A DNA stretch of 64,000 nucleotides, taken from assembly GCA_963844965.1 (NCBI GenBank), contig CAWJQC010000007.1, forward strand, positions 267,719 to 331,718, written 5' to 3'. The translations under genes and the position numbers were made by a program. Every line of letters starts with the position of its first letter. The first letter of the stretch is position 1. Source of the DNA: an uncultured bacterium (lineage in GTDB: Bacteria > Patescibacteriota > Minisyncoccia > UBA6257 > 2-01-FULL-56-20). Below, one piece after another: positions 1,395-50,861 of this stretch. Below the pieces are notes generated by a model. That model was not told the origin of the DNA. It was given only the letters and a program-made list of their open reading frames with translations, and did not search any database.

Positions 1395-2066
1395 TTAAAC
1401 CGTGGCATTTTTTCGAACCCGTTCTTGTTTTTTGAGACAATCAACGAGATATTTTACGATCTTTTCGCAATTTTCTTCCGGAGTGGTGCTCACAAAAACT
1501 GCGACATTATGCTTCCTGGCGTCATCAATAAGGAAGTTTTGCTGTATCTTTTCAATGCGCCAGATCTTTTCGCTTAGCCAAGCCTTCTGAACGCCATGGC
1601 GCCTGTCGAATTTCTTCGCCAGAAGTTCCTTGTGGTGAGCGTGGTTTCTGGCGATAAGCAAGATGTGGAATACCCTTGCTTCCGGGATGTTTTGGTATAG
1701 GGACGGGAGAAGATGCACTCCTTCAATCATTGTGTTTTCCCCGACTCTAATGATATTTTTTCGGATAATCGCCCTGGCGCCTCTCCGCAACGCGCGGCAG
1801 TGGCCGAGAAAACCTTTCGCGAAATTGCTTTCTGTGGACTTGCCGAACAATCTCCAGCGGTTATGGCTTCTGCCTTGTATAATCGGCCGGCGGTCGTAAA
1901 GGCGCATGACGTCGCGTATTTCGTCCATGCCGATGACGGTGGCGAACCTGAGGGCAGCGGCGAGCAGCACGGCCGTTGACGATTTTCTGGTCCCGGCCAT
2001 GCCGCAGATGAGGATCAATACCGGCCTCTTTCCTTCCGTGAATTTCTTCACGAGCCATTTGTTCAT
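1395..2066 (-). CDS. P-loop kinase, 2-phosphoglycerate-kinase-like / AAA_33 family
   Basis: 223 aa. Walker A ICGMAGTRKSS followed by ...VIGMDEIRDVMR, typical of 2-PGK-like/zeta-like P-loop kinases. Last gene of a tightly packed minus-strand operon. Confidence 0.5.
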   Translation of the reverse strand: MNKWLVKKFTEGKRPVLILICGMAGTRKSSTAVLLAAALRFATVIGMDEIRDVMRLYDRRPIIQGRSHNRWRLFGKSTESNFAKGFLGHCRALRRGARAIIRKNIIRVGENTMIEGVHLLPSLYQNIPEARVFHILLIARNHAHHKELLAKKFDRRHGVQKAWLSEKIWRIEKIQQNFLIDDARKHNVAVFVSTTPEENCEKIVKYLVDCLKKQERVRKNATV

Positions 2067-2701
2067 TTATGCCTCCTTTCGCTTAGCGGTGCATCTTTTC
2101 AATTTTCGCAAGACCATCGCTAGTGCGCAATAAGCATTTACATCGGTCTTTTTCGCGAGTTCAAGGAACGCTTCCGCTTCTTTTATCCAGCGGGGAAATT
2201 TAGCGCGATTGGGATTTGATCGCGGTATGAGCGGGGCGCGCCTTATCGTGTCATACTTGTCGGCAATGCCAAGGAGTTTTATTCCCCGGCTTCCGTTGCG
2301 GACAAAATCATTGAAGAACCGCGCCTTGAGGATTTTCTTCTCGGCTTCGGTTTCGTGGGCTTCTGGCATCCGAGTTACTCCTTTAACGATATCGTGTGTT
2401 TCGGGACGAATAGGTGCTCAATCGTTTCCAGCGCAACGCCGCCGTCTTCCACGACGTCGTGCAGAAGGGCGGCGGCAAGCAGATGGTAATCGCGGACACG
2501 GAACGTTTCAAAGAGAAAATTGAACACGGCGAGCGGATGGACGAAGTACGGATATGATTCAATTCCGAATTTTTTCTGCCCCCGATGCGCCGCTTCAGCC
2601 ATGTTGTATGCCCGCCAGAGCGCCGATTGTTCGGCGCAGGTAAGTTGCCTGGCGTTCTTCATGAATCGGCGCTTTGCGGCTTTGAGCGATGGGTAACGCA
2701 T
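2067..2701 (-). CDS. HD-domain (p)ppGpp-hydrolase-like protein (SpoT/RelA hydrolase motif), split into two ORFs by an apparent 1-nt indel
   Basis: ORF 2375..2701 contains HRGQ...YPYFVHPLAV...ALLHDVVEDGG, the signature of RelA/SpoT HD hydrolase domains. The abutting ORF 2067..2369 (5 nt gap, different frame) reads KLLGIADKYDTIRRA..., matching the continuing KLADRLHNMRTL helix. Confidence 0.5.
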
Positions 2702-2722
2702 GCGGCCTCCTTTCTTTGCGGG

Positions 2723-3922
2723 CTAAAACCCGAAGTGATTTAGAAGAATTGCTTTAAGATCCATTTTCCGCAACGATTGCCAGAAAATCTTATGCGAAAG
2801 CTTTTTCTTTCTGCGGATTTTTTCTTCCTCGGTCACTTTGCCGCCCATTGAGTGCGCGAGAGTGCCGTGGCGGTCGCTATAGGGGAAGATTTTCACCTTG
2901 TTGAAGTGGAATTTATCTAAGACTGCGGAGGTCGCAAGAAAGTCCGCTTCGGTTTCGCCCGGAAATCCGACGATGATGTGGGTGTTGATCTTGAGGCGAG
3001 GATTTGCCTCCCGGATGCGCTCAAGAAGAGGGAGCACGCGTTCCATGGCATACGGCCGCTGCATCAGGTTGAGAATCCTTTGACTGCCGCTTTCAATGGG
3101 AATGGTGATGAAGATAATTTTTGGCGAGGAAAGCGCCGCGAAAAGCCGTTTTTCGTATCTAACAAGCGCGGCTGGATTGAATTCGGTGAGCACCAATCTG
3201 AAGTCCTGTTTCATCGCGAGGATTTGCTCTAGAAGATCGGCGATGCTCTCGCCGCGGTCTTGGCCGAACATTCCTACGTCATCTGCGTTGAGGGAAAAAA
3301 TACAGTATCCTTCCTCAAGACCGCACAGGAATTCACGCATAATATCCGCTGTTGGCTTTGATACCAGTTTGCCGCGGGCAAGCCGTTCGGCGCAGTAGGT
3401 ACAGGTTCCGAGGCATCCTTCTGAAATTTTGAGATGGAAGACTTTTTCCTTGTCGTAGAGATACGTAAAGTAATCGTCGCGCAGGAACACGCGGTTCAGC
3501 AGCCGCATCAATCTTCCGCCGCGAGACCACTCCCTATGCACTTTGTGACCTATCTTGCGTTCGGCACGACTGAGATTGAACATATTTATCGCTTCTTCCA
3601 GATTTCGGCCGGAGAAAAATCTCCCTTCGGCATTTATCTCGCGCAATCTTTGAGGATTGATGTCGGGCAGACAGCCGAAAACGACCACCTCCTGGTTTTT
3701 TCGTTTGGCGTTGAGGAGCTTCGTGATCTCGCTGACGGCTTTTTCTTCGGCGCTTTCCATGAACGCGCAGCTGTTGATGAGGATGATATCTGCTTCGTTC
3801 GCGCTTGGCGCTTCAATCCAGTTGTTCGCGCTGAGCAGTTCTTTCACGTCCTCTCCACAGAGCATCAGTCGGACGCACACATTCTCGTTGACCAGGTGAA
3901 ATTTCCGCGGAAGTTTGCCCAT
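2723..3922 (-). CDS. radical SAM methylthiotransferase, MiaB/RimO (MTTase) family
   Basis: 399 aa. N-terminal MTTase domain (ILINSCAF...), radical SAM cluster motif CLGTCTYC, and overall MiaB/RimO-like layout. Confidence 0.7.
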   Translation of the reverse strand: MGKLPRKFHLVNENVCVRLMLCGEDVKELLSANNWIEAPSANEADIILINSCAFMESAEEKAVSEITKLLNAKRKNQEVVVFGCLPDINPQRLREINAEGRFFSGRNLEEAINMFNLSRAERKIGHKVHREWSRGGRLMRLLNRVFLRDDYFTYLYDKEKVFHLKISEGCLGTCTYCAERLARGKLVSKPTADIMREFLCGLEEGYCIFSLNADDVGMFGQDRGESIADLLEQILAMKQDFRLVLTEFNPAALVRYEKRLFAALSSPKIIFITIPIESGSQRILNLMQRPYAMERVLPLLERIREANPRLKINTHIIVGFPGETEADFLATSAVLDKFHFNKVKIFPYSDRHGTLAHSMGGKVTEEEKIRRKKKLSHKIFWQSLRKMDLKAILLNHFGF

Positions 3923-4089
3923 TTTTCGTTTCCTTTTATGGTTAAAATTTCAACGGAACCTATAGCTACCTGATTATTAGCATAAAGTTGGGTCGTGAGT
4001 CAATTTTAAGTTTCGGATAGGCTTTGAAGTTTTCAGGGAACATATCGGTCCCAACATGCGAACCGGAAAGGTTCGCTGAACGAAATAAA

Positions 4090-4115
4090 GGGCCTGGATT
4101 CCCGGGCCCTTTTTC
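4090..4115 (+). terminator. GC-rich hairpin plus T-run (gggcctggattcccgggccc ttttt); possible 3' end of a small plus-strand RNA
   Basis: Perfect GC stem followed by TTTTT on the plus strand. It lies in the divergent intergenic region, so it cannot terminate the minus-strand gene. Confidence 0.4.
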
Positions 4116-4190
4116 TGTGTGAAAAACCGCAATTTGCTCTATATAAAACCAAAATGAAACTTTTTACCGGCACTTATCGTATGTATAAGT

Positions 4191-5132
4191 ATGAAAAACA
4201 ACAAATTGTGGTTTCTGGTGTCGGCTTTAGGGGTTGTGATGGCGGTTGGTTTCGCTTTCAGCGCGGCGCACGCTCAAATGCCGCAGGGTAATTTTGGCCA
4301 ACCGGGCCAACAGGGAGGCGGTTTTGGCCAGGGAAACCCGGCAGGAGGACCAAATTCCGCGCGTCACAACATGAAGATGCCGTTCTCCGGCGTGACCGGC
4401 ACCGTGACGGCGGTGAATGGCATGACGATAAGTGTTCAAAGCTCGCGTGCGTCAAGCACGATTTACGCCGTTGATGCGAGCAATGCGACGGTGAGGAAAA
4501 ATAACGCTACAAGTACGGTTTCCGCGATCGCGGTGGGGGACAGGGTGCTCGTCAGGGGCACGGTGAACGGCACTTCCGTTACCGCCGCGAGCATTATTGA
4601 TGGAAATTTTGGTCGCGGTTTCGCTGGGAACGGGAATCCGTTCAATGCCAGTTCGTCGGCCAACGGAATGCCATTCGGTCGCGGCAGAGGCGGCCGTCCG
4701 TTCGGCGCGGTGAGTGGAACAATGCCGTTCGTGAGCGGTACATTTCCTTTTGCGAGCGGGACATCGCCGTTCGCCAGCGGCACGCCGCCGTTCGGCAGAT
4801 TCGGCGGGCTTGGCGGAGAAAGCATCACGGGCACCGTGGCCTCGGTTGGCAATTCAACGCTAACCGTGACTGGGAATAACGGGACAACGTACACAGTGGA
4901 TATTTCAAGCGCCACGCTCGTGAAGCAGGGGAACGCGACAAGTTCGGTCTCGGCTATCAACGTCGGCGACAGTGTGCAGATCCAGGGTAACGTGAGCGGC
5001 ACTTCTGTCACCGCGAACATAATTGTTGATAATGTCAGCCAGAGTTCTTCCAATCGGGGGTTCTTCGGCACCATCGAAGGCGCTATCGGAAACCTTTTCT
5101 CCAAACTGTTTCATTTCAATTTCAGGTTCTAA
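4191..5132 (+). CDS. secreted Gly-rich repeat protein with two duplicated ~70-aa beta domains
   Basis: 313 aa, N-terminal signal/TM (LWFLVSALGVVMAVGFAFSAAHA). Internal duplication ...TGTVTAVNGMTISVQ...ATSTVSAIAVGDRVLVRGTVNGTSVTAASIID repeated as ...TGTVASVGNSTLTVTG...ATSSVSAINVGDSVQIQGNVSGTSVTANIIVD. Between them lie PFxSGT / GRG low-complexity repeats. Confidence 0.55.
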   Translation: MKNNKLWFLVSALGVVMAVGFAFSAAHAQMPQGNFGQPGQQGGGFGQGNPAGGPNSARHNMKMPFSGVTGTVTAVNGMTISVQSSRASSTIYAVDASNATVRKNNATSTVSAIAVGDRVLVRGTVNGTSVTAASIIDGNFGRGFAGNGNPFNASSSANGMPFGRGRGGRPFGAVSGTMPFVSGTFPFASGTSPFASGTPPFGRFGGLGGESITGTVASVGNSTLTVTGNNGTTYTVDISSATLVKQGNATSSVSAINVGDSVQIQGNVSGTSVTANIIVDNVSQSSSNRGFFGTIEGAIGNLFSKLFHFNFRF

Positions 5133-10879: not shown

Positions 10880-11974
10880 ATGATCAAATATTTATCAAGA
10901 ACAAATCCCAGACTTCTTCAAGGCACGGCGCTCCTGCGGCTTGACTTCAACACGGAAGACGACTGGCGGATGCGGGCGGTTTTGCTGACAGTCCGCTTTT
11001 TATTAAAATACGCCTCAAAGATTATTATCGTAAGCCACAGGGGGCGGCCAAAGGGCCGCGACAAGAAATTCAGCCTGAAAGGAAGCGGTTTGCGCCTGCA
11101 AAAACTTCTGGGCCGCCGGGTTAAGTTCGTGCCGGACTTAAACTTCGCTTATATTAAGAAGGCAGTCGCTGATTCGCCGCACGGCTCCATTGTTCTTTTG
11201 GAGAATTTGAGATTTTGGAAGGGGGAGGAGGCGAATGATTCGAAGTTCGCGAAACAATTGGCGTTGCTTGCCGATTATTTTGTGAACGACGCGTTCGCGG
11301 TTTCGCATCGGGCGAACGCTTCGGTCGCGGCAATCACGAAATTCCTGCCGAGTTATGCCGGGCTTGAATTGGAAAGGGAGATCAAGTTCCTCGGGGGCGT
11401 GATGCGCCATCCACGCCATCCGTTTGTTTTTGTCGTAGGCGGGGCGAAAGCAAGCGACAAGCTCGGAGTTATGAAATATTTCAGAAGCAAGGTCGATTGG
11501 TTCCTTGTCGGCGGCGCTGCGGGAAATACGGTTCTCGCCCTTAAAGGAATGGGTATGAAAAAATCTCTTAGGGACAAGGACAAAAAAGATTTAAAAGGAC
11601 TACGCGGGATTCTGAGGTATGAGAATGTTATATTGCCTGTGGATTTGAAATGGCATAACGGCGCCGCGCTTGATATCGGTCCGAGGACAATCGGAGCGTT
11701 CACCGGGAAAATCCGCCGCGCGAGAACTATAATTTGGAGCGGTCCGGTCGGCTATTTTGAGAAGCGCGGTTTTGACAAGGGGAATCTTGCGGTAGCGCGC
11801 GCGATAGCGGCGAACCGCAAGGCGTTCAAGCTCACCGGTGGCGGCGAAACGGTGATGTTCCTAAAGAAACACCATTTAGATAAGAAGTTTAGTTTTATTT
11901 CAACCGGCGGGGGAGCAATGCTTGATTTTTTAGCCGGAAAAAAACTTCCTGGGATAGAGGCATTAAGTAAATGA
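10880..11974 (+). CDS. pgk: phosphoglycerate kinase
   Basis: Motifs LLRLDFN, IIVSHRGRPKG, LLENLRFWKGEE, VNDAFAVSHRANAS and WSGPVGYFE match PGK. The ORF track starts at 10844; the internal Met at 10880 (MIKYLSR) fits the usual PGK N-terminus better. Confidence 0.9.
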   Translation: MIKYLSRTNPRLLQGTALLRLDFNTEDDWRMRAVLLTVRFLLKYASKIIIVSHRGRPKGRDKKFSLKGSGLRLQKLLGRRVKFVPDLNFAYIKKAVADSPHGSIVLLENLRFWKGEEANDSKFAKQLALLADYFVNDAFAVSHRANASVAAITKFLPSYAGLELEREIKFLGGVMRHPRHPFVFVVGGAKASDKLGVMKYFRSKVDWFLVGGAAGNTVLALKGMGMKKSLRDKDKKDLKGLRGILRYENVILPVDLKWHNGAALDIGPRTIGAFTGKIRRARTIIWSGPVGYFEKRGFDKGNLAVARAIAANRKAFKLTGGGETVMFLKKHHLDKKFSFISTGGGAMLDFLAGKKLPGIEALSK

Positions 11975-20844: not shown

Positions 20845-21888
20845 ATGAAGCACCTCATTTCGCTTAAAGAGCAGTCGCGCGAGGATATTCTTCAGATTTT
20901 GGAACTGGCGCGGAAGCTCAAGGAAAAGCGCGCGAAAGGCGAACTTACCGAATATCTCAAGGACAAGACGCTCATAATGCTTTTCCAAAAGACGTCCACG
21001 CGGACGAGGCTTTCGTTCGAGGCGGCGATGACGGAACTCGGCGGGCATGCCATATTTCTGGACGCGCGGACTTCCCAGCTTGGCCTTGCCGACTTCGGCG
21101 ACGAAATTCGCGCCATCATGCGTTTCGGGCAGGTTCTCATGTTCCGCGCGCTCAAAGTCGCGGACGTGCTCACAGCCGCTTCATTCAATCAGATTCCGGT
21201 GATTGACGCCTGCAGCGAAAAATATCATCCGGCACAATCGCTCGGCGATATGCTAACGATGATTGAACACAGCTCCCCGCGTCATCCTGAGCGCAGCGAA
21301 GGATCTCCATGCTCCCCAGCGGAATTTGCCGAGGGATTAAAAAATATCAAAAAAGTCGTCTGGCTCGGAATTGAAAATAATGTTTCAAATACCCTGAAGC
21401 TTGTTTGCGTGAAGCTTGGCGTCAGGTTTGTGATCGCCGCGCCGGAAGTGGACGCGGCGAGCGTTGATGAGGAGTTGAACAGAATGGCCGAGGCCACCGG
21501 ACTTATTTCACGGACGCTGAATCTGAAAGAAGCTCTCGCCGGAGCGGATTATGTTCACACCGATACCTGGCTCAACATGGAGTTTTTCGACACGACGGTG
21601 TCGACCCTGAGCGAAGTCGAACGGGTTCATGGAAGCCGCGTGAAGCCGCAATTCGCGGAAGAATTGGAACGCAGGAAGAAAATTTTCATGCCTTACCAGC
21701 TGAATGCCAAGCTGATTGATACCTATGCCCCGAAGGCGAAGATAATGCATTGTCTTCCCGCGCACGTCGGCTATGAAATTTCCCGCGATGCCATTGACCA
21801 CAAGAATTCCGTTATTTTTGACCAAGCCGAGAACCGCCTGCACATCCAAAAAGCCGTAATTATGTGGCTCTTGGGGAAGGGGACATAG
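20845..21888 (+). CDS. argF: ornithine carbamoyltransferase with an in-frame ~20-aa repeat-element-derived insertion
   Basis: STRTRLSFE carbamoyl-phosphate motif, HCLPAHVG, and a C-terminus similar to OTCases. Insertion SSPRHPERSEGSPCSPAEFAEG is encoded by the palindromic repeat unit at 21281-21307. Confidence 0.8.
   Translation: MKHLISLKEQSREDILQILELARKLKEKRAKGELTEYLKDKTLIMLFQKTSTRTRLSFEAAMTELGGHAIFLDARTSQLGLADFGDEIRAIMRFGQVLMFRALKVADVLTAASFNQIPVIDACSEKYHPAQSLGDMLTMIEHSSPRHPERSEGSPCSPAEFAEGLKNIKKVVWLGIENNVSNTLKLVCVKLGVRFVIAAPEVDAASVDEELNRMAEATGLISRTLNLKEALAGADYVHTDTWLNMEFFDTTVSTLSEVERVHGSRVKPQFAEELERRKKIFMPYQLNAKLIDTYAPKAKIMHCLPAHVGYEISRDAIDHKNSVIFDQAENRLHIQKAVIMWLLGKGT
21281..21307. repeat. 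palindromic repeat unit GTCATCCTGAGCGCAGCGAAGGATCTC (single arm, in-frame inside argF)
   Basis: Near-identical to both arms of the inverted pair at 59294..59365. It encodes ...RHPERSEGS... in the argF frame. Confidence 0.6.
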
Positions 21889-22015
21889 TTTGCTATTTTG
21901 TCTGAAAAATAGGCCCTGACTCAAAGTCGAGGTTTTTATTTGTTGTCGGCGGGACATTTTGGATTTTTCCAGTAGTAAATGCTAAACTAAATCTACAACT
22001 TAATATGCCTAAACC

Positions 22016-22129
22016 GCCGAAATTTCGGTAACATGGCGTAAAAATCCCATCCCTGATACTAAGCTCCTCGCTTAGCTACTCAGGGATGGGTCGCGTCTCG
22101 AAAGAGGCGTGGGTAACCGAAAGGTTGCC
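22016..22129 (+). promoter_or_regulatory. highly structured palindromic leader upstream of the MTase-nuclease gene (nested perfect hairpins, GNRA-type loops, repeated CCCATCCCTG motif)
   Basis: ccgaaatttcgg; cccatccctga[tactaagctcctcgcttagcta]tcagggatggg (11-bp perfect stem with inner stem); gcgtctcgaaagaggcg; ggtaaccgaaaggttgcc. CCCATCCCTG recurs at 22176, 4 nt before the ATG. Confidence 0.35.
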
Positions 22130-22188
22130 ATGCTAGCGGGGAGCTTCGTGTTTTCCGTTAGCGGCATAGATTAAAACCCATCCCTGCT

Positions 22189-23787
22189 ATGCCCAACAAG
22201 CTTTACTTCGGAGATAATCTTGATATCCTCCGCGACAAAATCGCCGACAATTCGGTTGATTTGATTTACCTTGACCCACCGTTCAACTCCAATCGCAACT
22301 ACAACGTACTTTTTAAAGAGGGATTGCAGGATAGTCCAGCACAAGTTCAAGCATTTGAGGATAGCTGGCACTGGACGCGCGAAGCGCAGGCGACTTTTGA
22401 GGAACTAATGGGTGTGCGGCCATCAAAGACAAAAATCAACGCCGACATCGTTAATTTAGCGCAGGCGTTAGAGAAGCTAGTCGGCCATAACGATATGCTG
22501 GCTTATCTCACAATGATGACGATTCGCTTAATCGAACTAAGGCGTGTTCTGAAGCCAACCGGAAGTATTTACCTTCATTGCGACCCAACCGCCAGCCATT
22601 ATTTGAAAGTTGTGTTGGACACCGTTTTTGGGAAACAAAATTTTTTGAATGAAGTCATTTGGAGATACGAAGGACCTCAATCGCCAAGCTTAATTAAATT
22701 TGCGACGAAGCACGATATCGTTCTTCGTTATGCGAGTGATATAAAATCTTGCAAAGCCGTCGAATTATATTATTTTGAAAAGATATCAGTTGAAGATGCA
22801 AATTTTAAGCAGGATGAGAATGGGCGTTATTTCTATACTCTACCCAAAGGAGACTATACCGAAGAAAGCATAAAAAGATTAGAACAAGAAGGTCGTATAT
22901 TCAGGACCTCTAAGGGAACAGTGCGTATAAAGTATTTTGTAGAAAAAACTTCGGATGGGAACTTTTTGCGTAAAAAGAAAATACCAGACGTTTGGGACGA
23001 CATACCTTCGCTTGGGCTTACTGCCCAATCGAAAGAAGTTCTTGGTTATCCGACCCAAAAACCCGAAGCACTTTTGGAAAGAATAATCAGAGCATCTTCA
23101 AAAGAAGGCGACTTAGTTCTTGACCCATTCTGCGGTTGTGGCACGACGGTCTCCGTCGCTGAGCGGCTAAAAAGGAATTGGGTTGGTATTGATATTACGA
23201 TGCTTGCTATTAATTTGATTCGCCATCGCCTCGCGAAACAATATCCGAACATAGAAATTTTAGTGGATGGCAGGCCAAAAGATATTCCCGCAGCCGGGGC
23301 GCTTTTCAAAAAAGACCCGTTTGAATTTGAATACTGGGCACTGGATTTAGTTGACGCTGTTCCTGCTCAAAGCAAAACCAAAGAAAATATGCGTGGCGCA
23401 GACAAGGGGATTGACGGCGTGATTAACTTTGTCAGAGACATAAAAAATGGCGAGCAAGTTTACGGTAAGTTGGTTGTTCAGGTGAAGGGTGGTGCGGTTC
23501 ACCGCGACCAAATTGCTACGCTTAAGGGTGATATAGAGCGTGAGCGGGCCGACGGCGGAATTTTTGTGACGCTCGAGAAGCCAACCCAGCCAATGAAAGA
23601 AGAGGCAGTAAGCACCGGAAGTTATAAGGTGGGTTTTGGCAAAGGAGAATACCCGAAAATTCAGATAGTAACCATAGAGGATTTATTAGATAATAAGAAG
23701 CCTGAAGTTCCTATTGCCGCCCTGCCTTATTATAAAGAGGCCAAAGTTGCTAAATCCGAAAACAGGTCAAAAAAATTAGGAATATAG
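22189..23787 (+). CDS. DNA methyltransferase (N6A/N4C, beta-class) fused to a C-terminal Mrr-type restriction endonuclease catalytic domain
   Basis: DLIYLDPPFNSNRNYN (motif IV), then LVLDPFCGCGTTVSVAERL…WVGIDI (motif I). The C-terminal ~180 aa (GADKGIDGVINF…GKLVVQVKGG…ADGGIFVTLEKPTQPMKEEA) matches the Mrr_cat PD-(D/E)xK block. Confidence 0.75.
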   Translation: MPNKLYFGDNLDILRDKIADNSVDLIYLDPPFNSNRNYNVLFKEGLQDSPAQVQAFEDSWHWTREAQATFEELMGVRPSKTKINADIVNLAQALEKLVGHNDMLAYLTMMTIRLIELRRVLKPTGSIYLHCDPTASHYLKVVLDTVFGKQNFLNEVIWRYEGPQSPSLIKFATKHDIVLRYASDIKSCKAVELYYFEKISVEDANFKQDENGRYFYTLPKGDYTEESIKRLEQEGRIFRTSKGTVRIKYFVEKTSDGNFLRKKKIPDVWDDIPSLGLTAQSKEVLGYPTQKPEALLERIIRASSKEGDLVLDPFCGCGTTVSVAERLKRNWVGIDITMLAINLIRHRLAKQYPNIEILVDGRPKDIPAAGALFKKDPFEFEYWALDLVDAVPAQSKTKENMRGADKGIDGVINFVRDIKNGEQVYGKLVVQVKGGAVHRDQIATLKGDIERERADGGIFVTLEKPTQPMKEEAVSTGSYKVGFGKGEYPKIQIVTIEDLLDNKKPEVPIAALPYYKEAKVAKSENRSKKLGI

Positions 23788-23889
23788 GCGGTACTTGACA
23801 CCGTTATCCACTCGTATATACTTAAACTATTCCAAAGACCGCAGGGCATCCGCCGATGAGGCGGCATAGGACCCGCGATAGGAATCGTT

Positions 23890-23971
23890 GGAGTAATCGC
23901 TAATAATGCGAATATCGGCAAATAATGCAAATAAAATTCGCATTATTTGAAAAAGATTAGCATTATTCGCG
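23890..23971. repeat. ~85-bp repeat family copy 1 (arrays of GCGAATAATGC-like sub-repeats in direct and inverted orientation), within the rplJ leader
   Basis: ~85% identical to 28967..29048. Internal inverted repeats aataaaattcgcattatt / attagcattattcgcg. Confidence 0.6.
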
Positions 23972-24018
23972 GACACTCCTCGATGGCGGCCTTTGGAGAA
24001 AAGGTCGTTTTTTATTCC

Positions 24019-24102
24019 TTACGAAAATACGAAAACATACGAAATTACGAAAAAGAGGTTTGAGCCCTTTCGTACGTTCGTACAATTTCGTACTTTCGTA
24101 AG
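24019..24102 (+). promoter_or_regulatory. rplJ leader: inverted array of heptamer repeats (4x TACGAAA ... 4x TTTCGTA) forming a long imperfect hairpin
   Basis: cttacgaaaatacgaaaacatacgaaattacgaaaaag…ctttcgtacgttcgtacaatttcgtactttcgtaag, ending 9 nt before the rplJ ATG. Preceded at ~23806 by TTGACA-N16-TATACT. Confidence 0.5.
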
Positions 24103-24110
24103 AGTTAGCG

Positions 24111-28064: not shown

Positions 28065-28973
28065 ATGCACCACCATCCGGTTCTTTTAAAAGAAATCATA
28101 AAATTTTTAGATCCGAAACCCGGCGAATTCATTGTTGACGGCACGGTTGACGGAGGAGGACACGGCGCCGAAATTTTTGAAAAGATTTTACCGAATGGAA
28201 GACTTTTGGGCGTAGACCTGGATGCCGATCTCCTGGAAAAAGCTTCGCGGGCAGTTTCCGCGAAAGTCAAAAGCCGGAAATCAAATATCAACAGCAATTT
28301 GATTTTGGTTCGGGGCAACTACGCCGACCTACCGGATATTTTGGAAGAAAAAAAGTTGCCGAAGGCCGACGGTTTGCTTCTGGATCTGGGATTTTCCTCC
28401 GAACAATTGGAGAACGCCGAAAAAAGGGGATTCAGCTTTGAAAAAAATGAGCCGCTTTTGATGACCTACAGCGCCGGGCGGAAGCCCGTCAAAGAAATTC
28501 TCACGGAACTTGACGCCAAGGAGCTTGCGAAAATCATCTTTGAACTGAGCGGTGAGAAGTTCGCGATGCGGATAGCGCGGGCGATAAAAGAACGGGGGCG
28601 GACGAGAGCAGTAGAGACAAGCGGTGAGCTCGCGGAAGCGGTCCGGGGCGCGGTGCCCAAAAATTATGAGCGCGGCCGCATTGATCCCGCGACGAGAACT
28701 TTTCAGGCGCTGCGGATTTACGCGAACGACGAACTAGGGAATCTTAAAAAAGTTTTGGACAGATTGGGAGAAATTCTGGAACCGGGCGGGAGAGTGGTGA
28801 TTATAAGTTTCCATTCGCTTGAGGATCGAATAGTGAAGGATAATTTTCGGAAGCTGGAGGAATCCGGAGAACTCCGGATTTTGACGAAGAAGCCGGTTCG
28901 CCCCGCGGAAGAGGAAATTTTGAAAAATCCGCGCAGCCGCTCAGCTAAACTGCGCGCCGCTATCATGGAGTAA
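28065..28973 (+). CDS. rsmH: 16S rRNA (cytosine1402-N4)-methyltransferase RsmH (MraW)
   Basis: HHPVLLKEII…DGTVDGGGHG…DLGFSSEQL…SFHSLEDRIVK, the conserved MraW motifs. It sits in the dcw cluster. Confidence 0.9.
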   Translation: MHHHPVLLKEIIKFLDPKPGEFIVDGTVDGGGHGAEIFEKILPNGRLLGVDLDADLLEKASRAVSAKVKSRKSNINSNLILVRGNYADLPDILEEKKLPKADGLLLDLGFSSEQLENAEKRGFSFEKNEPLLMTYSAGRKPVKEILTELDAKELAKIIFELSGEKFAMRIARAIKERGRTRAVETSGELAEAVRGAVPKNYERGRIDPATRTFQALRIYANDELGNLKKVLDRLGEILEPGGRVVIISFHSLEDRIVKDNFRKLEESGELRILTKKPVRPAEEEILKNPRSRSAKLRAAIME

Positions 28974-29048
28974 TCGCGAATAACGCGAATGATAGCAAAT
29001 AACGCGAATAAAATTCGCATTATTCAATAAAAATTAGCATTATTCGCG
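28967..29048. repeat. ~85-bp repeat family copy 2 (GCGAATAATGC sub-repeat array), rsmH-ftsL intergenic
   Basis: See copy 1 at 23890..23971. It begins at the rsmH stop codon. Confidence 0.6.
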
Positions 29049-44081: not shown

Positions 44082-44377
44082 AGTTAGTTCTTCATTTCTA
44101 TCACGTTGAGCAGCTTTTCGCAAAAGATGAAGGGACGTCAGGAACCCTCAAAAAATATTGTCAAACTGGCTCCAAACGTGATACCTTTTAGGTAATTGAA
44201 TATCAGATAGATCGCCTAAACCACGCATTTTGCATGGCATGGCATTACGCAGAATCTCCCTTCCAGATACCAAACGCCACGTTTGGCGACTTCTGGAAGG
44301 GAGTCACTCCGAAAGGGGTGGGGCCGCAAGGCCCAAGCCAGCGTGGCGTTTTGTGTTCTCTATTTTAAAACAAACCC

Positions 44378-45289
44378 ATGGCCTTATTCTCCATCTCAAA
44401 CGGCAGCACGAAGAAAATATCATCCGTGAAAATCGGGCTTGAAAAAGACGTCCAAAAACTCTTCGAGAAAAACCTTGAGGAGATTTTGAATATCACATTC
44501 CTAGCATCAGAGTATTCAACGAGCTTCGGCGGACGAATCGATACGCTGGGTATGGATCATAACGGAGCGCCAGTGATCATTGAATATAAGCGGTCGCAAA
44601 ATGATAGCGTCATCAACCAAGGCCTGTCATACCTCCGATGGCTTCTTGATCACAAAGCGGATTTTGAAGCGCTGGCGCACCGATTAAAAATTGAGATTGA
44701 AATTGATTGGGCTTCTCCGCGCGTTATCTGCGTGGCCGAGAGTTACAATAAATTTGACCTCGATACCGCCGATCTTCTGCCGATGAACATAGAACTGTTA
44801 CGCTACAAGATTTATGAACAAAACATTCTTCTCGTTGAACCAGAAGTGCAACGCAAAATAAAAATATCCACGTCGGAAGTATTCGAGAAAACAACGCGGG
44901 AGAGGCACGAGTTTAAAGAACAGATCAAACACACCATCGAAGATCATTTGAAATCAGCAAATCCCGCCATCCGCGATCTTTTTGCCGCCATGAAAGAGAA
45001 AGTTCTTGCGCTTGACGAATCAATCAGCGAGGAGCCGAAAGCGCATTACATTGCCTACAAACTGGTGAATAATTTTGTGGATGTTGCGGTGCAAAAGGAC
45101 GCCTTAAAAATTTTCCTCAACATCACGAGCGGCGCGTTAAATGATCCGACATCTCTGGCCCGCGACCTTACTAAGCCGAAACCCGTTGGCCACTGGGGTA
45201 ACGGCGACTACGAACTCAAGCTTGATCAACGGGAAAATCTCAATGCTGTGATGGCGCTCATCAAGCAAAGTTACGAATACAACAAGTAA
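44378..45289 (+). CDS. NucS/DUF91-like PD-(D/E)xK nuclease-domain protein with uncharacterised C-terminal domain
   Basis: 303 aa: …GGRIDTLGMDHNGAPVIIEYKRSQND… resembles the NucS/EndoMS-type nuclease motif. It is preceded by a long perfect hairpin at ~44262-44330. Confidence 0.4.
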   Translation: MALFSISNGSTKKISSVKIGLEKDVQKLFEKNLEEILNITFLASEYSTSFGGRIDTLGMDHNGAPVIIEYKRSQNDSVINQGLSYLRWLLDHKADFEALAHRLKIEIEIDWASPRVICVAESYNKFDLDTADLLPMNIELLRYKIYEQNILLVEPEVQRKIKISTSEVFEKTTRERHEFKEQIKHTIEDHLKSANPAIRDLFAAMKEKVLALDESISEEPKAHYIAYKLVNNFVDVAVQKDALKIFLNITSGALNDPTSLARDLTKPKPVGHWGNGDYELKLDQRENLNAVMALIKQSYEYNK

Positions 45290-45416
45290 AGCCCTTGTTC
45301 AGAAATACTGAAAATCCCCGCTGTAAACCAGAGGAGGTTTTCGGTTTCTTTTTCCATCCGCCCTAAAATAGCGCGGCGATTTTTCGTGTTCAAAAATAAA
45401 CTAATTTATCATCACT

Positions 45417-47345
45417 ATGGCAAAACGAGGAAGACCGCCGAAAAATCAATTGACGGTCGCGCAACCAAAAACCGAATGTGCTCCGGACATGAGTAGTCTC
45501 AATAAGATGCCGAAGTATTGTTTGTACGCGAGGAAGTCATCGGAGAGCGAAGAACGGCAGGCACTCTCCATCGACTCACAGGTCAAGGAGATGTATAAGA
45601 TCGCGGAGCGCGATCATCTCTCGGTCGTTGAAGTACTGACCGAATCACACTCTGCAAAAAGCACCGGATGCCGACCGATCTTTAACCAGATGGTTATAGG
45701 TGTTAAGGATGGCCGCTTTGAGGGCATTCTTACCTGGGCACCGGATCGTCTGAGTCGCAACGCAGGCGACTTGGGCCAGCTGGTCGATCTTATGGACAAC
45801 GGCCATCTTGCGGAAATCCGCACGTTCGGGCAGATATTCAAAAATTCGCCCAACGAAAAATTCTTGCTTATGATTCTCTGCTCACAGGCGAAACTCGAAA
45901 ATGATAACAAGAGCGAGAACGTGAAGCGAGGTCTCCGTGCTGCCGCCGAGCGAGGATATCGCCCAGGCGTCGCACTTGTGGGATACACGAACAGTTATCG
46001 CAGGGATCATCCCGGCGAAGTGGTAATTGATAAACTGCGAGCCCCAATCATAAAGCTTATGTTTGAGAAAGCCGCAAATGGATGGTCAGCGCGGAAGTTG
46101 GTGGTCTGGCTTCGCGGTATCAACTTTACGACGCGCAACGGAACATATCTCTATCTAAGCAGTGTTCATACGCTGTTGCAGAACCACTTTTACTACGGCA
46201 CGTTCGAATACCCTCGGGGCAGCGGCGCATGGCACAAAGGAAATCATAAACCGCTCATTACCAAGGATATGTTCGACCGTGTTCAAGCGCAGATTGAACG
46301 ACGGCGCACCTCGCGCCGCTCGGAGCGGAAATCTTTTGGATTCACCCAGCTCATGCATTGCGGCATCTGTGGCTCCGGCGTTTCCGCCGAAGAAAAATTT
46401 AAGAAACTGGTAGACGGTTCACAGGCCCGCTATGTCTACTACGGATGCAATCGTTCCAAGGGGGTGAAGTGTACCAATACTTACATCCGTGAGGATTTTC
46501 TGGTCCGGCAGTTTGTGAACATCATCGACGAGATATCGCTCGACGAGCTTGGCATACGAAAACTTCTCGGCGAGGAAACTGAGCGTGTCTTTCGGTTTCA
46601 CAATGATGTCATGGGCGATCCTAACGCTTCGGAAACTCAAGAGAAAAAAGATATCGACATTAAAACCTACGCTAAATATCTACTCGCAAGAGGCAACGCC
46701 GAAGAAAAAAGATTACTACTATGCAACATTCAGAACCGACTGATCCTTCGGGATAAAGCCGTATATCTGGAAGAAGTAGGCGGTCTTACCTGGAAGGACT
46801 ATATTGGCCATATGAGAAAGTGCGCGAACTGCGGATCAAAAAACGTGAACGAGAGCGGACCGTATGCGAACTGGAAATTCGGCGATACGCCAATCGACGA
46901 CACGCCGCGGATCGTGTATTTCGCTTGTCTCGACTGTGAGCAATCGTGGAAGCAGGTCAACGAGAATATCTTGCGATTAATGCGCGAGTATGTGGTGGTG
47001 CCAGAGGGAAACGGGGCGTGGATTAAAACACCTGGCGGCTCGGAGTTTTTCGCGACGCCGTCTTTCGCCGCGCGGTTCAGAGACACGGTGGAGATAGACG
47101 GCAAAAAAGTGCCACCGAAAAAAATTCTCGGGGAAATGCTGTACTGGCCAGACAGGAACGCTTACGAGACGACGATCGAATATGACGACGGAAGCGAACG
47201 GACATTTGATATCCCAAGTCTTCGTGGCAGGAACAATACAGAAGAAGGCATGAAGCCGATCAGCAATAAGGATGGTCTTATGGAGTACAAAGAAGGTAAG
47301 ATGCAAACTTATTTCGGTCGCGGTCTCCAATATGACGGCCGATAA
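45417..47345 (+). CDS. large serine recombinase (phage-type serine integrase), intact
   Basis: 642 aa: resolvase domain (LYARKSSESEERQALSIDSQ…ILTWAPDRLSRNAGDL), recombinase domain, zinc ribbon (CGICGS…YYGCNRSKGVKC), coiled coil and a second C4 motif. Confidence 0.85.
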   Translation: MAKRGRPPKNQLTVAQPKTECAPDMSSLNKMPKYCLYARKSSESEERQALSIDSQVKEMYKIAERDHLSVVEVLTESHSAKSTGCRPIFNQMVIGVKDGRFEGILTWAPDRLSRNAGDLGQLVDLMDNGHLAEIRTFGQIFKNSPNEKFLLMILCSQAKLENDNKSENVKRGLRAAAERGYRPGVALVGYTNSYRRDHPGEVVIDKLRAPIIKLMFEKAANGWSARKLVVWLRGINFTTRNGTYLYLSSVHTLLQNHFYYGTFEYPRGSGAWHKGNHKPLITKDMFDRVQAQIERRRTSRRSERKSFGFTQLMHCGICGSGVSAEEKFKKLVDGSQARYVYYGCNRSKGVKCTNTYIREDFLVRQFVNIIDEISLDELGIRKLLGEETERVFRFHNDVMGDPNASETQEKKDIDIKTYAKYLLARGNAEEKRLLLCNIQNRLILRDKAVYLEEVGGLTWKDYIGHMRKCANCGSKNVNESGPYANWKFGDTPIDDTPRIVYFACLDCEQSWKQVNENILRLMREYVVVPEGNGAWIKTPGGSEFFATPSFAARFRDTVEIDGKKVPPKKILGEMLYWPDRNAYETTIEYDDGSERTFDIPSLRGRNNTEEGMKPISNKDGLMEYKEGKMQTYFGRGLQYDGR

Positions 47346-49533: not shown

Positions 49534-50861
49534 TTAGATCTTTTGAGGCTTGATGCCTGTTATGCGCTCGACTCTTTTTAGGATCACGGTGAGGTACACC
49601 GGAGATTTCTCCATCAGATAACAGCGGCGTTGCATTTTTAATGCAGCAGCCCATGTGGATCCGCTGCCCCCGAATGGCTCAAGGACGAGGTCGTTGCGCC
49701 TCGTAAGCACCTTGATATAGGGAACCAGGATCTCCACGGGCTTCGTGCCGAAAATGACGCCCTGCCCGGAATTCTTTTCGTCCGAGGCGACATGCTCGAT
49801 GAAGTCCGTAGGGCAAAACTTTTTTCCTTTTTCGTAGGACTCCCATTGCGGTTTCCCCGAGGTGGCAAACAACGCGTTTTCGTACTCGTTCTGGAGCAGC
49901 TCATCGCCCTCGTCGTCAAGGTTCAGCACCACTTCACCGCCGGTTCCCACAAGCGCGATGTCGTGCTTGTTGAAGAATTTGTATTTCGCTGCAAAACCGG
50001 AGACACGATTCGGAAGATGCCACGTGATCGTGTTCCGATATTTCCAATGTTGTTCTAGGGCGTTCCATATAGTCCGTAGATTCTTCGGATTTTCGAACAC
50101 AATGATGGAGAAGTCTGGCTTTTGCACCTTGGCTACATTCGCCATCCAGAGATCCGTAAAATTCTCCGGCAGTGATTCCGTCTCGAGATACCTGCGATCG
50201 CGCTTCAAACCGAACCCCTCCGTCGCTTTGCCGTTGCGCTTCTTGCCGTGGAGGTAATCCAAAAGGTAAGGGGGGTCGGTGAAACAGAGATTCGCCCGCT
50301 CGCCGTTCATGAGTTTCATGATGTCGGCCTCTACTGTGCTGTCCCCACACATCGCCCGGCTGCCGTTCAGCTCGAACACGTCGCCCTTTTGAATCTCTAT
50401 CTTGTCGATCTGGAGCTTCTGCAACTCCTTCGCGAGGTCAAATTCTTCTGGCGTTTCATCGAGCGCGAAGATTTTATCCAACTCTTCGCTTGAGAACCCA
50501 ATATCTTTCAAGATGGATTCATCGAACTCTGCGAGGGCCGCGATATCAAATTCGCCCGTGTTTTTGTTCAGCCGAATTATGATCTCGGCCTCCTTCTCTG
50601 GATCAGGAACGTTGATACGAACGACAGGCACCGTCTCTACACCCATCTCGATCAGTACCTTTGCGCGGAAGTTACCGCCGAGGATCACGCCTTCGCGGCC
50701 CGGCGCACTGTTAATGACTAATGGATCGATTATGCCGTGGCGCTCGAGACTCGCGCAGTTGAGTGTTTGCCTCCTTGGTCCATAGGCGAGGGTTCCTTTC
50801 GGGATGGCGTAGCGAAGCGAGAGGAACGTAATCGATCTTCAACTTTTCTTGTATGTCTTGG
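49534..50861 (-). CDS. ParB-like nuclease domain / DNA methyltransferase fusion (phage-type), frameshift near 50760
   Basis: In a shifted frame upstream of ORF 49534..50688: MDQDIQEKLKIDYVPLASLRHPERNPR (ParB N-terminal motif). Then …LERHGIIDPLVINSAPGREGVILGGNFRAKVLIEMGVETVPV. MTase motifs CFTDPPY (IV) and LVLEPFGGSGSTWAAA (I). Confidence 0.7.

What the first reader, a model, noticed from the sequence alone, without database searches (positions are those of the whole stretch)
22016..23787. Single-polypeptide DNA methyltransferase fused to an Mrr-type nuclease domain, behind a heavily structured palindromic leader with repeated CCCATCCCTG motifs
The protein has a beta-class MTase core (motif IV DPPF precedes motif I FCGCGTT) and a C-terminal domain matching the Mrr_cat catalytic block (GADKGIDGV…VVQVKGG…GGIFVT). 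This is a fusion of a modification enzyme with a restriction-type nuclease that usually cuts modified DNA, a combination that needs explaining. Possibilities are a Type IIG-like RM, or a self-methylating enzyme whose nuclease targets differently or non-methylated DNA. The 300-bp upstream region folds into several perfect hairpins (an 11-bp stem with a nested inner stem, GNRA-like loops). CCCATCCCTG occurs three times, once 4 nt before the ATG, which looks like an operator or riboregulator such as a C-protein-like control site.
Basis: partly seen in the sequence, partly recalled or inferred. Interest (0 to 1): 0.65.

Follow-up and report, generated by a model that had tools for sequence, protein, structure and literature searches.

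The report
LOOT RNA plus methylase-nuclease gene cassette
The "structured leader" is a copy of a known orphan bacterial RNA family (LOOT) and the gene behind it belongs to a very common but untested family of one-chain DNA methylase-nuclease enzymes; what is new is that part of the RNA is complementary to the gene's start region, here and at about a quarter of the other LOOT sites examined, which points to a possible job for this RNA.

Summary
ORF 22189-23787 (+) encodes a 532-aa beta-class DNA methyltransferase (DPPF, then FCGCGTT) fused to a C-terminal Mrr-family nuclease domain. That domain has the full motif set: FE, D-x-G-I-D, Q-x-K and a distal E.

The fusion is not unusual. It is a large, solitary, widely spread family with a hypervariable recognition region, most likely a self-contained Type IIC-like restriction-modification enzyme. 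An Mrr-type catalytic domain does not imply methyl-dependence; LlaGI is the precedent.

The "leader" (22006-22129) is a full-length LOOT RNA (Rfam RF03000, 84 bits). A second copy lies at 44213-44334. Two of the three CCCATCCCTG copies are the arms of LOOT helix P3. The third, 2 nt before the ATG, repeats the 5' arm.

None of 83 loci encoding relatives of the protein has a LOOT. Two close relatives of this genome lack both LOOT and gene, so the pair is a ~1.9-kb insertion.

Across 66 LOOT loci, 18 repeat their own, locus-specific P3 5' arm (at least 8 nt) in their 3' flank, against 1.3% in controls. In the 17 with an ATG just after the copy, 5 of the genes are DNA methyltransferases. The P3 apex is also complementary to the 3' tail. 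I infer a two-state or antisense riboregulator; this is untested.

The parts
21889..22005 (+). 5' flank of the inserted block, between the argF stop and the LOOT start. It holds the argF terminator-like stretch and a weak promoter-like copy (GGGACA ... TAAATG ... CTAAAC). The transcription start is not identified.
   Evidence: Alignment with the two empty-site relatives L222 and L223. The consensus promoter scan found nothing.
22006..22129 (+). LOOT RNA (Rfam RF03000), full length. Helices: P1 22007-09/22035-37; P2 22016-20/22025-29; P3 outer 22046-56/22080-90 (CCCAUCCCUGA/UCAGGGAUGGG); P3 apex hairpin 22059-64/22070-75; P4 22092-99/22104-11 (GAAA loop); P5 22112-18/22123-29 (GAAA loop).
   Evidence: cmscan 84.1 bits against a gathering score of 46.4, model positions 1-121 of 121. 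Own CM gives 102 bits. MFE helices.
22130..22162 (+). 3' tail, not in the Rfam model. It is a G-rich then U-rich segment (GCUAGCGGGGAGC UUCGU GUUUUCCGUUAGC). It can fold as a local 13-bp hairpin, or pair for about 18 bp with the P3 apex (22057-22076).
   Evidence: Apex:tail duplex is -27.9 kcal/mol here. Across 69 loci the own tail averages -25.1 against -15.3 kcal/mol for other loci's tails (p=5e-35).
22163..22193 (+). Start-region hairpin GGCAUAG/CUAUGCC. It holds the AUG in its stem. Its 17-nt loop displays AUUAAAA plus the copy of the P3 5' arm (ACCCAUCCCUG, 22176-22186), which is complementary to the P3 3' arm 22081-22091.
   Evidence: (I3: 11 nt, 100% complementary). The same arrangement is seen in L160.
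22189..23787 (+). 532-aa fusion protein. It has a beta-class N6-adenine-type DNA MTase (motif IV DPPF at 29-32, variable recognition region about 176-283, motif I FCGCGTT at 314-320) and a C-terminal Mrr-family PD-(D/E)xK nuclease domain (about 365-500; E381, D405, D409, Q431, K433, E452).
23788..24110 (+). Not part of the cassette. This is the native rplJ promoter (TTGACA 23795-23800, TATACT 23818-23823) and the L10-leader-like structured region. It marks the right boundary of the insertion, directly after the MTase stop codon.
   Evidence: Conserved in relatives L222 and L223, where it directly follows argF. Fold z = -6.9.
44213..44334 (+). Second LOOT RNA copy in the window. It lies 43 nt upstream of a PDC-S18-like (DUF5655/NucS-like) ORF at 44378-45289, followed by a large serine recombinase at 45417-47345. 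It has the apex:tail complementarity but no arm copy at the ATG.

Best explanation
The region is a ~1.9-kb acquired cassette inserted between argF and the rplJ promoter of a Patescibacteria (Paceibacterota-like) genome. It has two parts.

(1) The gene. It encodes a member of a very large, solitary family of one-chain enzymes. A beta-class (Type III Mod/CcrM-like) N6-adenine DNA methyltransferase with an internal, hypervariable recognition region is fused to a C-terminal Mrr-family PD-(D/E)xK nuclease. Most likely this is a self-contained Type IIC-like restriction-modification enzyme. The MTase domain marks the host's copies of its site and the nuclease cuts unmarked DNA. This is inferred from domain content, conservation of catalytic residues and recognition-region variability. 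No activity was shown.

(2) The "leader". It is a LOOT RNA (Rfam RF03000) with a 3' extension. Its long helix P3 has two mutually exclusive partners.
- In the Rfam fold, the P3 5' arm pairs with the 3' arm and the apex forms a hairpin.
- Alternatively, the apex pairs with the G-rich tail that precedes a U-rich run, which resembles a terminator, and the freed 3' arm can pair with an exact copy of the 5' arm placed 2 nt before the AUG.

I therefore read LOOT here as a riboregulator of the gene it travels with. It would act either as a two-state leader (LOOT fold = start region free; alternative fold = termination and/or start region masked) or as an sRNA antisense to the mRNA's 5' end. That would gate expression of a potentially self-toxic enzyme.

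Shown: family membership, the complementarities and their recurrence, and the insertion. Inferred: co-transcription, switching, and the direction of control.
For: Protein:
- Pfam, NCBIfam, PDB and PADLOC all call a beta-class N6/N4 MTase plus Mrr_cat.
- The AF2 model matches EcoP15I Mod, CcrM and M.RsrI. The C-terminal domain matches MspJI and AspBHI.
- D405, D409 and K433 are invariant and E452 nearly so; residue 431 is Q, or S in one clade. F380/E381 supply motif I. This holds across Patescibacteria, Proteobacteria, Chloroflexi, Acidobacteria and an archaeon. It is exactly the Mrr/LlaGI motif set described in PMC2790908.
- Residues about 176-283 are hypervariable in length and sequence.
- The gene is solitary with unrelated neighbours in other genomes.

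RNA:
- RF03000 scores 84.1 bits over the full model.
- 72 LOOT matches were collected with my own CM.
- Apex:tail duplex averages -25.1 (own) against -15.3 kcal/mol (other loci). The own tail is the best partner in 28 of 69 loci, p=5e-35, and G.U pairs are present.
- An exact copy of at least 8 nt of the locus-specific P3 5' arm lies in the 3' flank (mostly 34-76 nt past the LOOT end) in 18 of 66 loci. Controls: 54 of 4284 (1.3%) for arms against other loci's flanks, and 2 of 64 in the locus's own upstream.
- In 17 of the 20 loci with a copy of at least 7 nt, the copy ends 0-11 nt before an ATG.
- In several loci the copy pairs with the 3' arm better than the original 5' arm does: L102, L128, L144, L168, L171.
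- 5 of 17 such downstream genes are DNA MTases, against 0 of 40 downstream of LOOTs without a qualifying copy.
- L160 shares P3, the tail and the pre-ATG copy with this window, while P2, P4 and P5 differ by compensatory changes. Homology stops right after the ATG.

Insertion:
- Two relatives (L10 86-87% identical) have argF directly followed by the rplJ promoter and leader, with no LOOT and no MTase.
Against: - No member of the protein family is known to me to have been assayed. NA-iREase1, an "inactive REase" model, scores as well as Mrr_cat. In one clade the Q of Q-x-K is S.
- None of 83 loci encoding relatives of the protein has a LOOT, so the family does not need this RNA.
- Only about a quarter to a third of LOOT loci carry the arm copy. 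The second copy in this window does not.
- Genes downstream of LOOT are heterogeneous. Rfam classes LOOT as an sRNA.
- The LOOT loci were collected with a sequence pattern, so the sample is biased.
- No promoter or canonical terminator was found by consensus scans, so the transcript ends are unknown.
- The arm3/arm5' complementarity has no G.U or compensatory evidence that would exclude a DNA-level inverted or direct repeat.
- The MFE fold keeps the LOOT fold and leaves the copy unpaired.
Confidence: 0.55

Rival explanations
1. LOOT is an independent trans-acting or structural small RNA with its own 3' end at the U-rich tail. Its position in front of the MTase gene is only physical linkage inside an acquired island. 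The copy of the P3 arm next to the ATG would then be a DNA-level by-product, for example a recombination or att-like core, or inverted repeats for an invertase that flips the P4-P5-tail segment. It would not be an RNA pairing partner.
For: - Rfam types LOOT as an sRNA.
- Downstream genes are heterogeneous.
- Large serine recombinases sit next to LOOT in window copy 2 and in L082.
- The cassette is an insertion.
- Arm3 and the pre-ATG copy are perfect inverted repeats with no G.U pairs.
- About 70% of LOOT loci lack the copy.
Against: - The copy sits at a fixed place, 0-11 nt before the start codon, in 17 of 20 cases. Nothing about a recombination scar explains that.
- In five loci the copy is extended so as to pair better with arm3 than arm5 does.
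- There is no third copy flanking the cargo gene.
- GNRA loops and G.U pairs in apex:tail show strand-specific RNA-level selection.
- MTase genes are found only with the copy: 5 of 17 against 0 of 40.
Confidence: 0.25
2. The protein is an orphan (non-restricting) methyltransferase. The Mrr-like domain would serve as a DNA-binding, dimerisation or sensor module rather than as a nuclease. The enzyme's role would be epigenetic marking or protection against foreign restriction.
For: - The NA-iREase1 ("inactive restriction endonuclease") profile matches at E=9e-11.
- The best NCBIfam relatives are orphan MTases (YhdJ-like PRK11524, CcrM).
- The Q-x-K glutamine is replaced by serine in part of the family.
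- There is no separate protective MTase and no Res/helicase partner.
Against: - D405, D409 and K433 are invariant and E452 nearly so over very distant lineages.
- S at the middle position with a distal Glu is a known active variant (Cfr10I, NgoMIV; PMC2790908).
- The hypervariable recognition region and patchy, island-like distribution are typical of restriction-modification systems.
Confidence: 0.2
3. One reading: the nuclease cuts modified (differently methylated) DNA, Type IV-like, while the MTase marks self. The upstream repeats would be a C-protein-type operator.
For: The domain is named after Mrr, and its fold matches the nuclease domains of the modification-dependent MspJI and AspBHI.
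Against: - No Mrr_N, SRA or other modified-base reader domain is detected.
- LlaGI shows that the Mrr motif set is a conventional nuclease.
- There is no C/HTH gene in or next to the cassette.
- The repeats are helix arms of an RNA family.
Confidence: 0.04

Closest known systems
LOOT RNA motif (Rfam RF03000). To my recollection it comes from the Weinberg et al. 2017 screen (PMC5737381); its supplement could not be read here.
   Same: Full-length match to the covariance model (84.1 and 58.4 bits for the two window copies). It has the same helices, the conserved GCCUAAAC and CAUGGC boxes, and GNRA tetraloops.
   Different: Rfam models 121 nt and labels it an sRNA of unknown function. Here a 3' tail complementary to the P3 apex appears to be general (own tail favoured across 69 loci). 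In about 27% of loci a copy of the P3 5' arm abuts the downstream start codon. I could not find either feature described in the texts I could read.
Type IIC / IIG single-chain restriction-modification enzymes (MmeI, BpuSI, Eco57I, TstI)
   Same: The nuclease and MTase are in one polypeptide with a built-in recognition region. The gene is solitary. Self-protection by the enzyme's own MTase is expected (PMC12707154; PMC3185434, abstract).
   Different: Those enzymes have an N-terminal PD-ExK nuclease followed by a gamma-class N6_Mtase. Here a beta-class N6_N4_Mtase comes first and an Mrr-type nuclease last. No biochemistry exists for this family, to my knowledge.
LlaGI / Type ISP enzymes
   Same: A single-chain restriction-modification enzyme whose nuclease carries the Mrr motif set (D-x-G-h-D, Q-x-K) yet does not target methylated DNA (PMC2790908).
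   Different: From the title and abstract, LlaGI couples cleavage to DNA translocation. From my own knowledge, it has an N-terminal nuclease, a helicase-like ATPase motor and a gamma-class MTase. Pfam reports no ATPase or helicase domain here.
Type III Mod subunits (EcoP15I, Mbo45V) and beta-class orphan MTases (CcrM, M.RsrI, YhdJ)
   Same: These are the best sequence and fold matches for residues 1-360.
   Different: There is no Res subunit next to the gene, here or in relatives. A C-terminal nuclease domain is present instead.
MspJI/AspBHI and E. coli Mrr (Type IV)
   Same: The fold and motifs of the catalytic domain match.
   Different: Those enzymes have SRA-like or winged-helix readers of modified bases. 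None is detected here.
Riboswitch-type expression platforms, and antisense RNA control of toxins and restriction-modification genes
   Same: There are mutually exclusive helices: a structured domain against a terminator-like helix, and an anti-start against the start region.
   Different: No ligand, protein partner or transcript map is known. The specificity helix (P3) differs in sequence at every locus and is matched by the start region, which looks more like a guide/target pair.

Membership tests
LOOT RNA (Rfam RF03000) | Covariance-model score at or above the curated gathering score (46.4 bits) over the whole model | tested here: met
   22006-22129 scores 84.1 bits over model positions 1-121 of 121. 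44213-44334 scores 58.4 bits.
LOOT RNA (Rfam RF03000) | Base-paired helices P1-P5 with GNRA loops, kept by compensatory change between copies | tested here: met
   Window against L160: P2, P4 and P5 differ on both strands and still pair. 19 of 33 pairs show double changes in the five-sequence alignment.
Beta-class N6/N4 DNA methyltransferase (Pfam PF01555) | Profile match above cutoff; motif IV (D/S)PP(Y/F) N-terminal to motif I (FxGxG); recognition region between them | tested here: met
   147.6 bits against a 26.7 cutoff. DPPF at 29-32, FCGCGTT at 314-320, variable region at 176-283. The fold matches M.RsrI, CcrM and EcoP15I Mod.
Beta-class N6/N4 DNA methyltransferase (Pfam PF01555) | Methyl transfer to adenine N6 at a defined site | not testable with these tools
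   The DPPF motif and JGI source names suggest adenine-specific. This needs a methylome or an assay.
Mrr-family PD-(D/E)xK nuclease (motifs as defined in PMC2790908) | Motif I Glu next to a conserved Phe; motif II D-x-G-hydrophobic-D; motif III Q-x-K; a distal Glu in the following helix | tested here: met
   F380-E381; D405-K-G-I-D409; Q431-V-K433; E452. D405, D409 and K433 are invariant in 18 plus 36 sequences. Mrr_cat scores 41.3 bits against a 21 cutoff.
Mrr-family PD-(D/E)xK nuclease (motifs as defined in PMC2790908) | DNA cleavage activity | not testable with these tools
NA-iREase1 also matches.
Type IV Mrr / MspJI modification-dependent enzymes | A reader domain for modified bases (Mrr_N winged helix or SRA-like) joined to the nuclease | tested here: not met
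   Pfam at E<=1 lists only MTase-type and nuclease-type domains. The N-terminal 360 residues are an MTase.
Type IIG (MmeI/BpuSI-like) restriction-modification | N-terminal PD-ExK nuclease followed by a gamma-class N6_Mtase and a recognition domain | tested here: not met
   The domain order and MTase class are different. Only the broader Type IIC idea, both activities in one chain, fits.
Type III restriction-modification | Mod MTase working with a Res helicase-nuclease subunit encoded alongside | tested here: not met
   The neighbours are argF and rplJ. There is no Res next to relatives either.
C-protein-controlled restriction-modification system | A small HTH controller gene and its palindromic C-box operator upstream | tested here: not met
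   There is no ORF of that kind in 21889-22188 or beside it. The palindromes belong to an RNA family.
Cis-acting riboregulator / riboswitch-like leader | A conserved structured domain plus mutually exclusive helices that involve a terminator or the start region, conserved across loci | tested here: inconclusive
   Alternative pairings are statistically supported. However, the transcript ends, any ligand and the switching itself are unknown, and the MFE prefers the LOOT fold.

The most novel reading that the evidence does not exclude
LOOT is not a free-standing sRNA but a portable riboregulator that moves together with cargo genes, notably DNA methyltransferases and restriction-modification enzymes, in Patescibacteria. 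Its hypervariable helix P3 would act as a locus-specific address. The 3' arm matches the start region of the gene behind it, and the apex matches a terminator-like tail. The RNA would therefore toggle, or act as an antisense, to gate expression of a potentially lethal enzyme when the cassette enters a new, unmethylated host.
Probability: 0.35. Interest if true: 0.7.

Novelty: new member of a known kind. Interest (0 to 1): 0.45.

Why it matters
Taken at face value the finding is ordinary. The RNA is a new instance of a catalogued family. The protein belongs to a very common, database-annotated fusion family.

Two things give it some value.

First, the beta-class MTase plus C-terminal Mrr-nuclease family is found from Patescibacteria to Sphingomonas and in thousands of metagenome proteins, yet I found no biochemical characterisation of it. 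Its hypervariable recognition region suggests a large untapped pool of specificities.

Second, LOOT is an orphan RNA with no proposed function. The locus-specific complementarity of its P3 helix to the downstream start region, its 3' tail, and the fact that all five MTase genes found behind LOOTs sit behind an arm copy give a concrete hypothesis. It can be tested by mutation: does LOOT control the gene it travels with?

Tried and rejected
- C-protein operator idea: rejected. There is no controller ORF and the repeats are RNA helix arms.
- LOOT as a conserved leader of this MTase family: rejected. There were 0 hits in 20 loci with Rfam and in 83 loci with my own CM.
- Consensus sigma-70 promoter and intrinsic-terminator scans around both LOOT copies: nothing usable.
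- A third direct copy of CCCATCCCTG flanking the gene, which would suggest an att-like site: none in the window.
- Possible duplication of the rplJ promoter at the left edge of the insertion: the similarity is only moderate, so this is left open.
- Looking up the exact protein to find the source contig: not on record.
- Weinberg 2017 main text and supplement for a LOOT description: not in the main text, and the supplement is not held. A search for "LOOT motif" gave 0 papers.
- A search with the C-terminal domain alone returned mostly gene fragments, which were not informative about other architectures.
- A start-codon-sequestering hairpin that shows the arm copy in its loop is clear in the window and L160, and present in some form in L171, L144 and L128, but it is not general.
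Full report
**1. What is there**

The ORF at 22189-23787 (+) encodes 532 aa.

- Pfam finds N6_N4_Mtase (residues 23-342, 6.6e-43), Mrr_cat (376-475, 2e-10) and NA-iREase1 (402-501, 9e-11).
- NCBIfam, PDB sequence search and PADLOC all place the N-terminal 360 residues among beta-class N6-adenine/N4-cytosine MTases. Relatives include YhdJ-like PRK11524, CcrM, M.RsrI, M.MboIIA and the Type III Mod subunits.
- An AlphaFold2 model (mean pLDDT 71.7) matches EcoP15I Mod, a Helicobacter Mod, CcrM and M.RsrI. Its C-terminal domain matches the nuclease domains of MspJI and AspBHI.

**2. The nuclease domain is intact**

I aligned 18 sequences from very distant lineages: Patescibacteria, Sphingomonas, Acetobacteraceae, Anaerolineae, Aquificaceae, Ignavibacteriota, Nitrospirae, Acidobacteria, Actinobacteria and a Nanoarchaeia MAG. 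I also aligned 36 closer relatives.

- G403, D405, G407, D409, G410, K433 and G457 are invariant. E452 is nearly invariant. Residue 431 is Q, or S in one clade.
- Together with F380/E381 this is the Mrr-family motif set that Smith et al. defined for Mrr and LlaGI. It comprises a motif I Glu beside a Phe, D-x-G-hydrophobic-D, Q-x-K, and a distal Glu that replaces the missing carboxylate. Ser variants are known from Cfr10I and NgoMIV (PMC2790908).
- That paper also shows that LlaGI, a single-chain restriction-modification enzyme with these motifs, does not target methylated DNA.

So the "combination that needs explaining" is not a paradox. Mrr_cat is a generic catalytic module, and no modified-base reader domain is present here.

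**3. The fusion is common and solitary**

The best 120 (55-69% identical, full length) all carry the same three Pfam domains. Sources call them "DNA methyltransferase", "restriction endonuclease" or "site-specific DNA-methyltransferase (adenine-specific)".
- In one-genome-per-species GTDB contigs, 359 stretches encode a relative, from Patescibacteria to Sphingomonas longa.
- Neighbours differ from genome to genome (toxin-antitoxin pairs, housekeeping genes). No Res/helicase, second MTase or controller gene recurs.
- Residues about 176-283, the recognition region of beta-class enzymes, vary greatly in length and sequence.

The best reading is a self-contained Type IIC-like restriction-modification enzyme. 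This is an inference; I found no assayed member. It is not a Type IIG member in the MmeI/BpuSI sense, which needs an N-terminal nuclease and a gamma-class MTase. It is not Type III (no Res) and not Type IV (no reader domain).

**4. The leader is a LOOT RNA**

- cmscan against Rfam gives RF03000 (LOOT) at 22006-22129, 84.1 bits (gathering score 46.4), covering model positions 1-121 of 121. A second copy lies at 44213-44334, 58.4 bits.
- The 11-bp stem with a nested stem is LOOT helix P3 (22046-56/22080-90 and 22059-64/22070-75). The two GAAA hairpins are P4 and P5.
- Two of the three CCCATCCCTG copies are therefore the two arms of P3. The third (22177-86) lies outside the Rfam model and ends 2 nt before the ATG.
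- None of 83 loci encoding relatives of the protein contains a LOOT. LOOT is not a conserved leader of this enzyme family.
- LOOT matches collected from viral and metagenome contigs (72 matches in all: 2 in the window, 3 viral, 67 of the 80 metagenome loci listed) precede many kinds of genes.

**5. The pair is an insertion**

- The window's ribosomal protein L10 is identical to a database protein. Its nearest named relatives are Paceibacterota/Patescibacteria.
- In two relatives (L10 86-87% identical) argF is followed directly by the rplJ promoter (TTGACA-17-TATACT) and an L10-leader-like region, with no LOOT and no MTase.
- In the window the same native sequence resumes immediately after the MTase stop codon.

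So 21889-23787, LOOT plus gene, is a ~1.9-kb block that was gained or lost as a unit.

A metagenome locus, L160, carries a LOOT with the same P3, tail and pre-ATG copy. Its P2, P4 and P5 differ by compensatory changes. Homology ends right after the ATG, where a 21-codon ORF follows. The conserved module therefore ends at the start codon.

**6. New observations on LOOT**

(a) The interior of P3 (the apex) is complementary to the first ~45 nt after the Rfam 3' end. This tail is a G-rich stretch followed by a U-rich run such as CUUUUGUGUU.
- Duplex energy with the own tail averages -25.1 kcal/mol, against -15.3 for other loci's tails (69 loci, Mann-Whitney p=5e-35).
- The own tail is the single best partner in 28 loci.
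- The pairing includes the hairpin loop and G.U pairs, so it is RNA-level and strand-specific.
- About 18-20 bp of apex:tail cannot coexist with a closed P3, so the two are alternatives.

(b) In 18 of 66 loci the locus-specific P3 5' arm, preceded by an A-rich stretch as in the LOOT linker, is repeated exactly (at least 8 nt) in the 3' flank, mostly 34-76 nt after the LOOT end.
- Controls: 1.3% for arms tested on other loci's flanks, and 2 of 64 on the locus's own upstream.
- In 17 of the 20 loci with a copy of at least 7 nt, the copy ends 0-11 nt before an ATG. In 16 of those the ORF is at least 60 codons.
- In five loci the copy pairs with the 3' arm better than the original 5' arm does.

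(c) Of those 17 downstream genes, five are DNA MTases: this one, two other N6_N4 enzymes, an HSDR_N plus N6_Mtase fusion, and a C5 MTase. One is a DUF4365 nuclease.
- None of 40 ORFs behind the other LOOT loci (those without an arm copy followed by an ATG) is a DNA MTase. One has Mrr_cat and one is the PDC-S18-like gene of window copy 2.
- A hypergeometric calculation by hand gives p about 0.0015. The ORF calls are crude and the sample was collected with a sequence pattern, so this number is indicative only.

**7. Mechanism proposed (inferred)**

- Fold A is the Rfam fold. P3 is closed, the tail folds locally (13-bp hairpin 22132-62 in the window) and the start region is not paired to LOOT.
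- Fold B has apex:tail, a long GC-rich helix followed by U's that resembles a terminator. The released 3' arm pairs with the pre-ATG copy, masking the start.
- The linkers are long enough for both Fold B helices to stack.
- Equally possible, LOOT ends at the U-run and acts in trans on a short-leader mRNA. This genome rarely uses Shine-Dalgarno sequences and often has TATAAT about 8-12 nt before the ATG.
- RNAfold prefers Fold A. It also predicts a small hairpin (22163-69/22187-93) that holds the AUG and shows the arm copy in its loop. This hairpin is clear in L160 and present in some form in L171, L144 and L128, but it is not general.
- Which state is "on", and what shifts the balance, is unknown.

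**8. Verdict**

- The protein is a new member of a known, abundant, uncharacterised fusion family. The RNA is a new member of a known Rfam family.
- The added value is a testable hypothesis for the function of LOOT. The main rival is that LOOT is an independent sRNA and the arm copy is a DNA-level feature of cassette recombination.

Noticed in passing
window 44213-47345: The second LOOT RNA (44213-44334) lies 43 nt upstream of a 303-aa PDC-S18-like protein (PADLOC E=3.9e-97; DUF5655, weak NucS_C). A 642-aa large serine recombinase follows. Upstream, on the other strand, is a DUF2779 protein. The region looks like a small mobile or defence island.
   Followed up: partly
window 23788-24110: The rplJ promoter (TTGACA/TATACT) and an L10-leader-like region are conserved in two relatives. 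The window carries two long lineage-specific palindromes inside this region: 23890-23979, built of AATAATGC repeats, and 24018-24102, built of four TACGAAA and four TTTCGTA units. The fold z-score is -6.9. There is no Rfam hit.
   Followed up: partly
window 23902-23967 and 28979-29044: The same four-unit palindromic element (AATAATGCGAAT, two forward and two reverse copies) occurs twice in the window. The second copy lies right after the stop of ORF 28065-28973. It may be a repeated terminator-like element.
   Followed up: no
whole window: Only 9 of 40 long ORFs have any Shine-Dalgarno-like motif. Several have TATAAT-like boxes 8-12 nt before the ATG (for example argF at 20845, and ORFs at 10880 and 26001). 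This suggests leaderless or very short-leader mRNAs.
   Followed up: partly
L160 (Ga0268276_1017427) 632-2065: Next to a LOOT that shares P3 with the window copy lie a reverse transcriptase (350 aa) and, by eye, a four-helix-bundle Avd-like protein (117 aa), convergent with LOOT. This may be a diversity-generating retroelement.
   Followed up: no
L092 (IMGVR_UViG_3300010346_002174) 1871-4511: In a viral contig the LOOT sits directly after a cluster that, read by eye without a profile search, looks like a Dam-like MTase, an N6_N4 MTase and a 174-aa restriction-endonuclease-like ORF. This would be another LOOT/restriction-modification adjacency, with the RNA downstream of the genes.
   Followed up: no
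L082 (IMGVR_UViG_2626541890_000001) 771-2901: Here LOOT lies between a large serine recombinase that looks similar by eye to the window's 45417-47345 protein and a DUF4365 nuclease-like ORF whose start is preceded by the P3 arm copy.
   Followed up: partly
protein P0251 (contig of 331,718 bp): This 200-aa protein is 62% identical to the C-terminal third of the window enzyme and starts inside the MTase domain (MLAINLIKHRL...). Its contig has the same length as the one carrying the identical L10. It may be a truncated second family member in the same genome, outside this window.
   Followed up: no
L010 3450-3549 (-): A DUF3800-V RNA (RF02964, 64 bits) lies about 1.3 kb downstream of a relative of the MTase-Mrr protein in a Patescibacteria MAG.
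   Followed up: no
window 49534-50646 (-): A second ORF in the window shows weak similarity (28% over 60 aa, motif I region) to the MTase domain. It is probably another methyltransferase gene.
   Followed up: no
LOOT 5' ends (window 22000-22014 and other loci): -10-like boxes (TAATAT, TACAAT, TAATAA) sit 0-9 nt before the invariant GCCTAAAC. If they are used, transcription would start inside the box and the 5' strand of P1 would be missing from the RNA. Part of the conserved 5' motif may therefore be a DNA signal.
   Followed up: no
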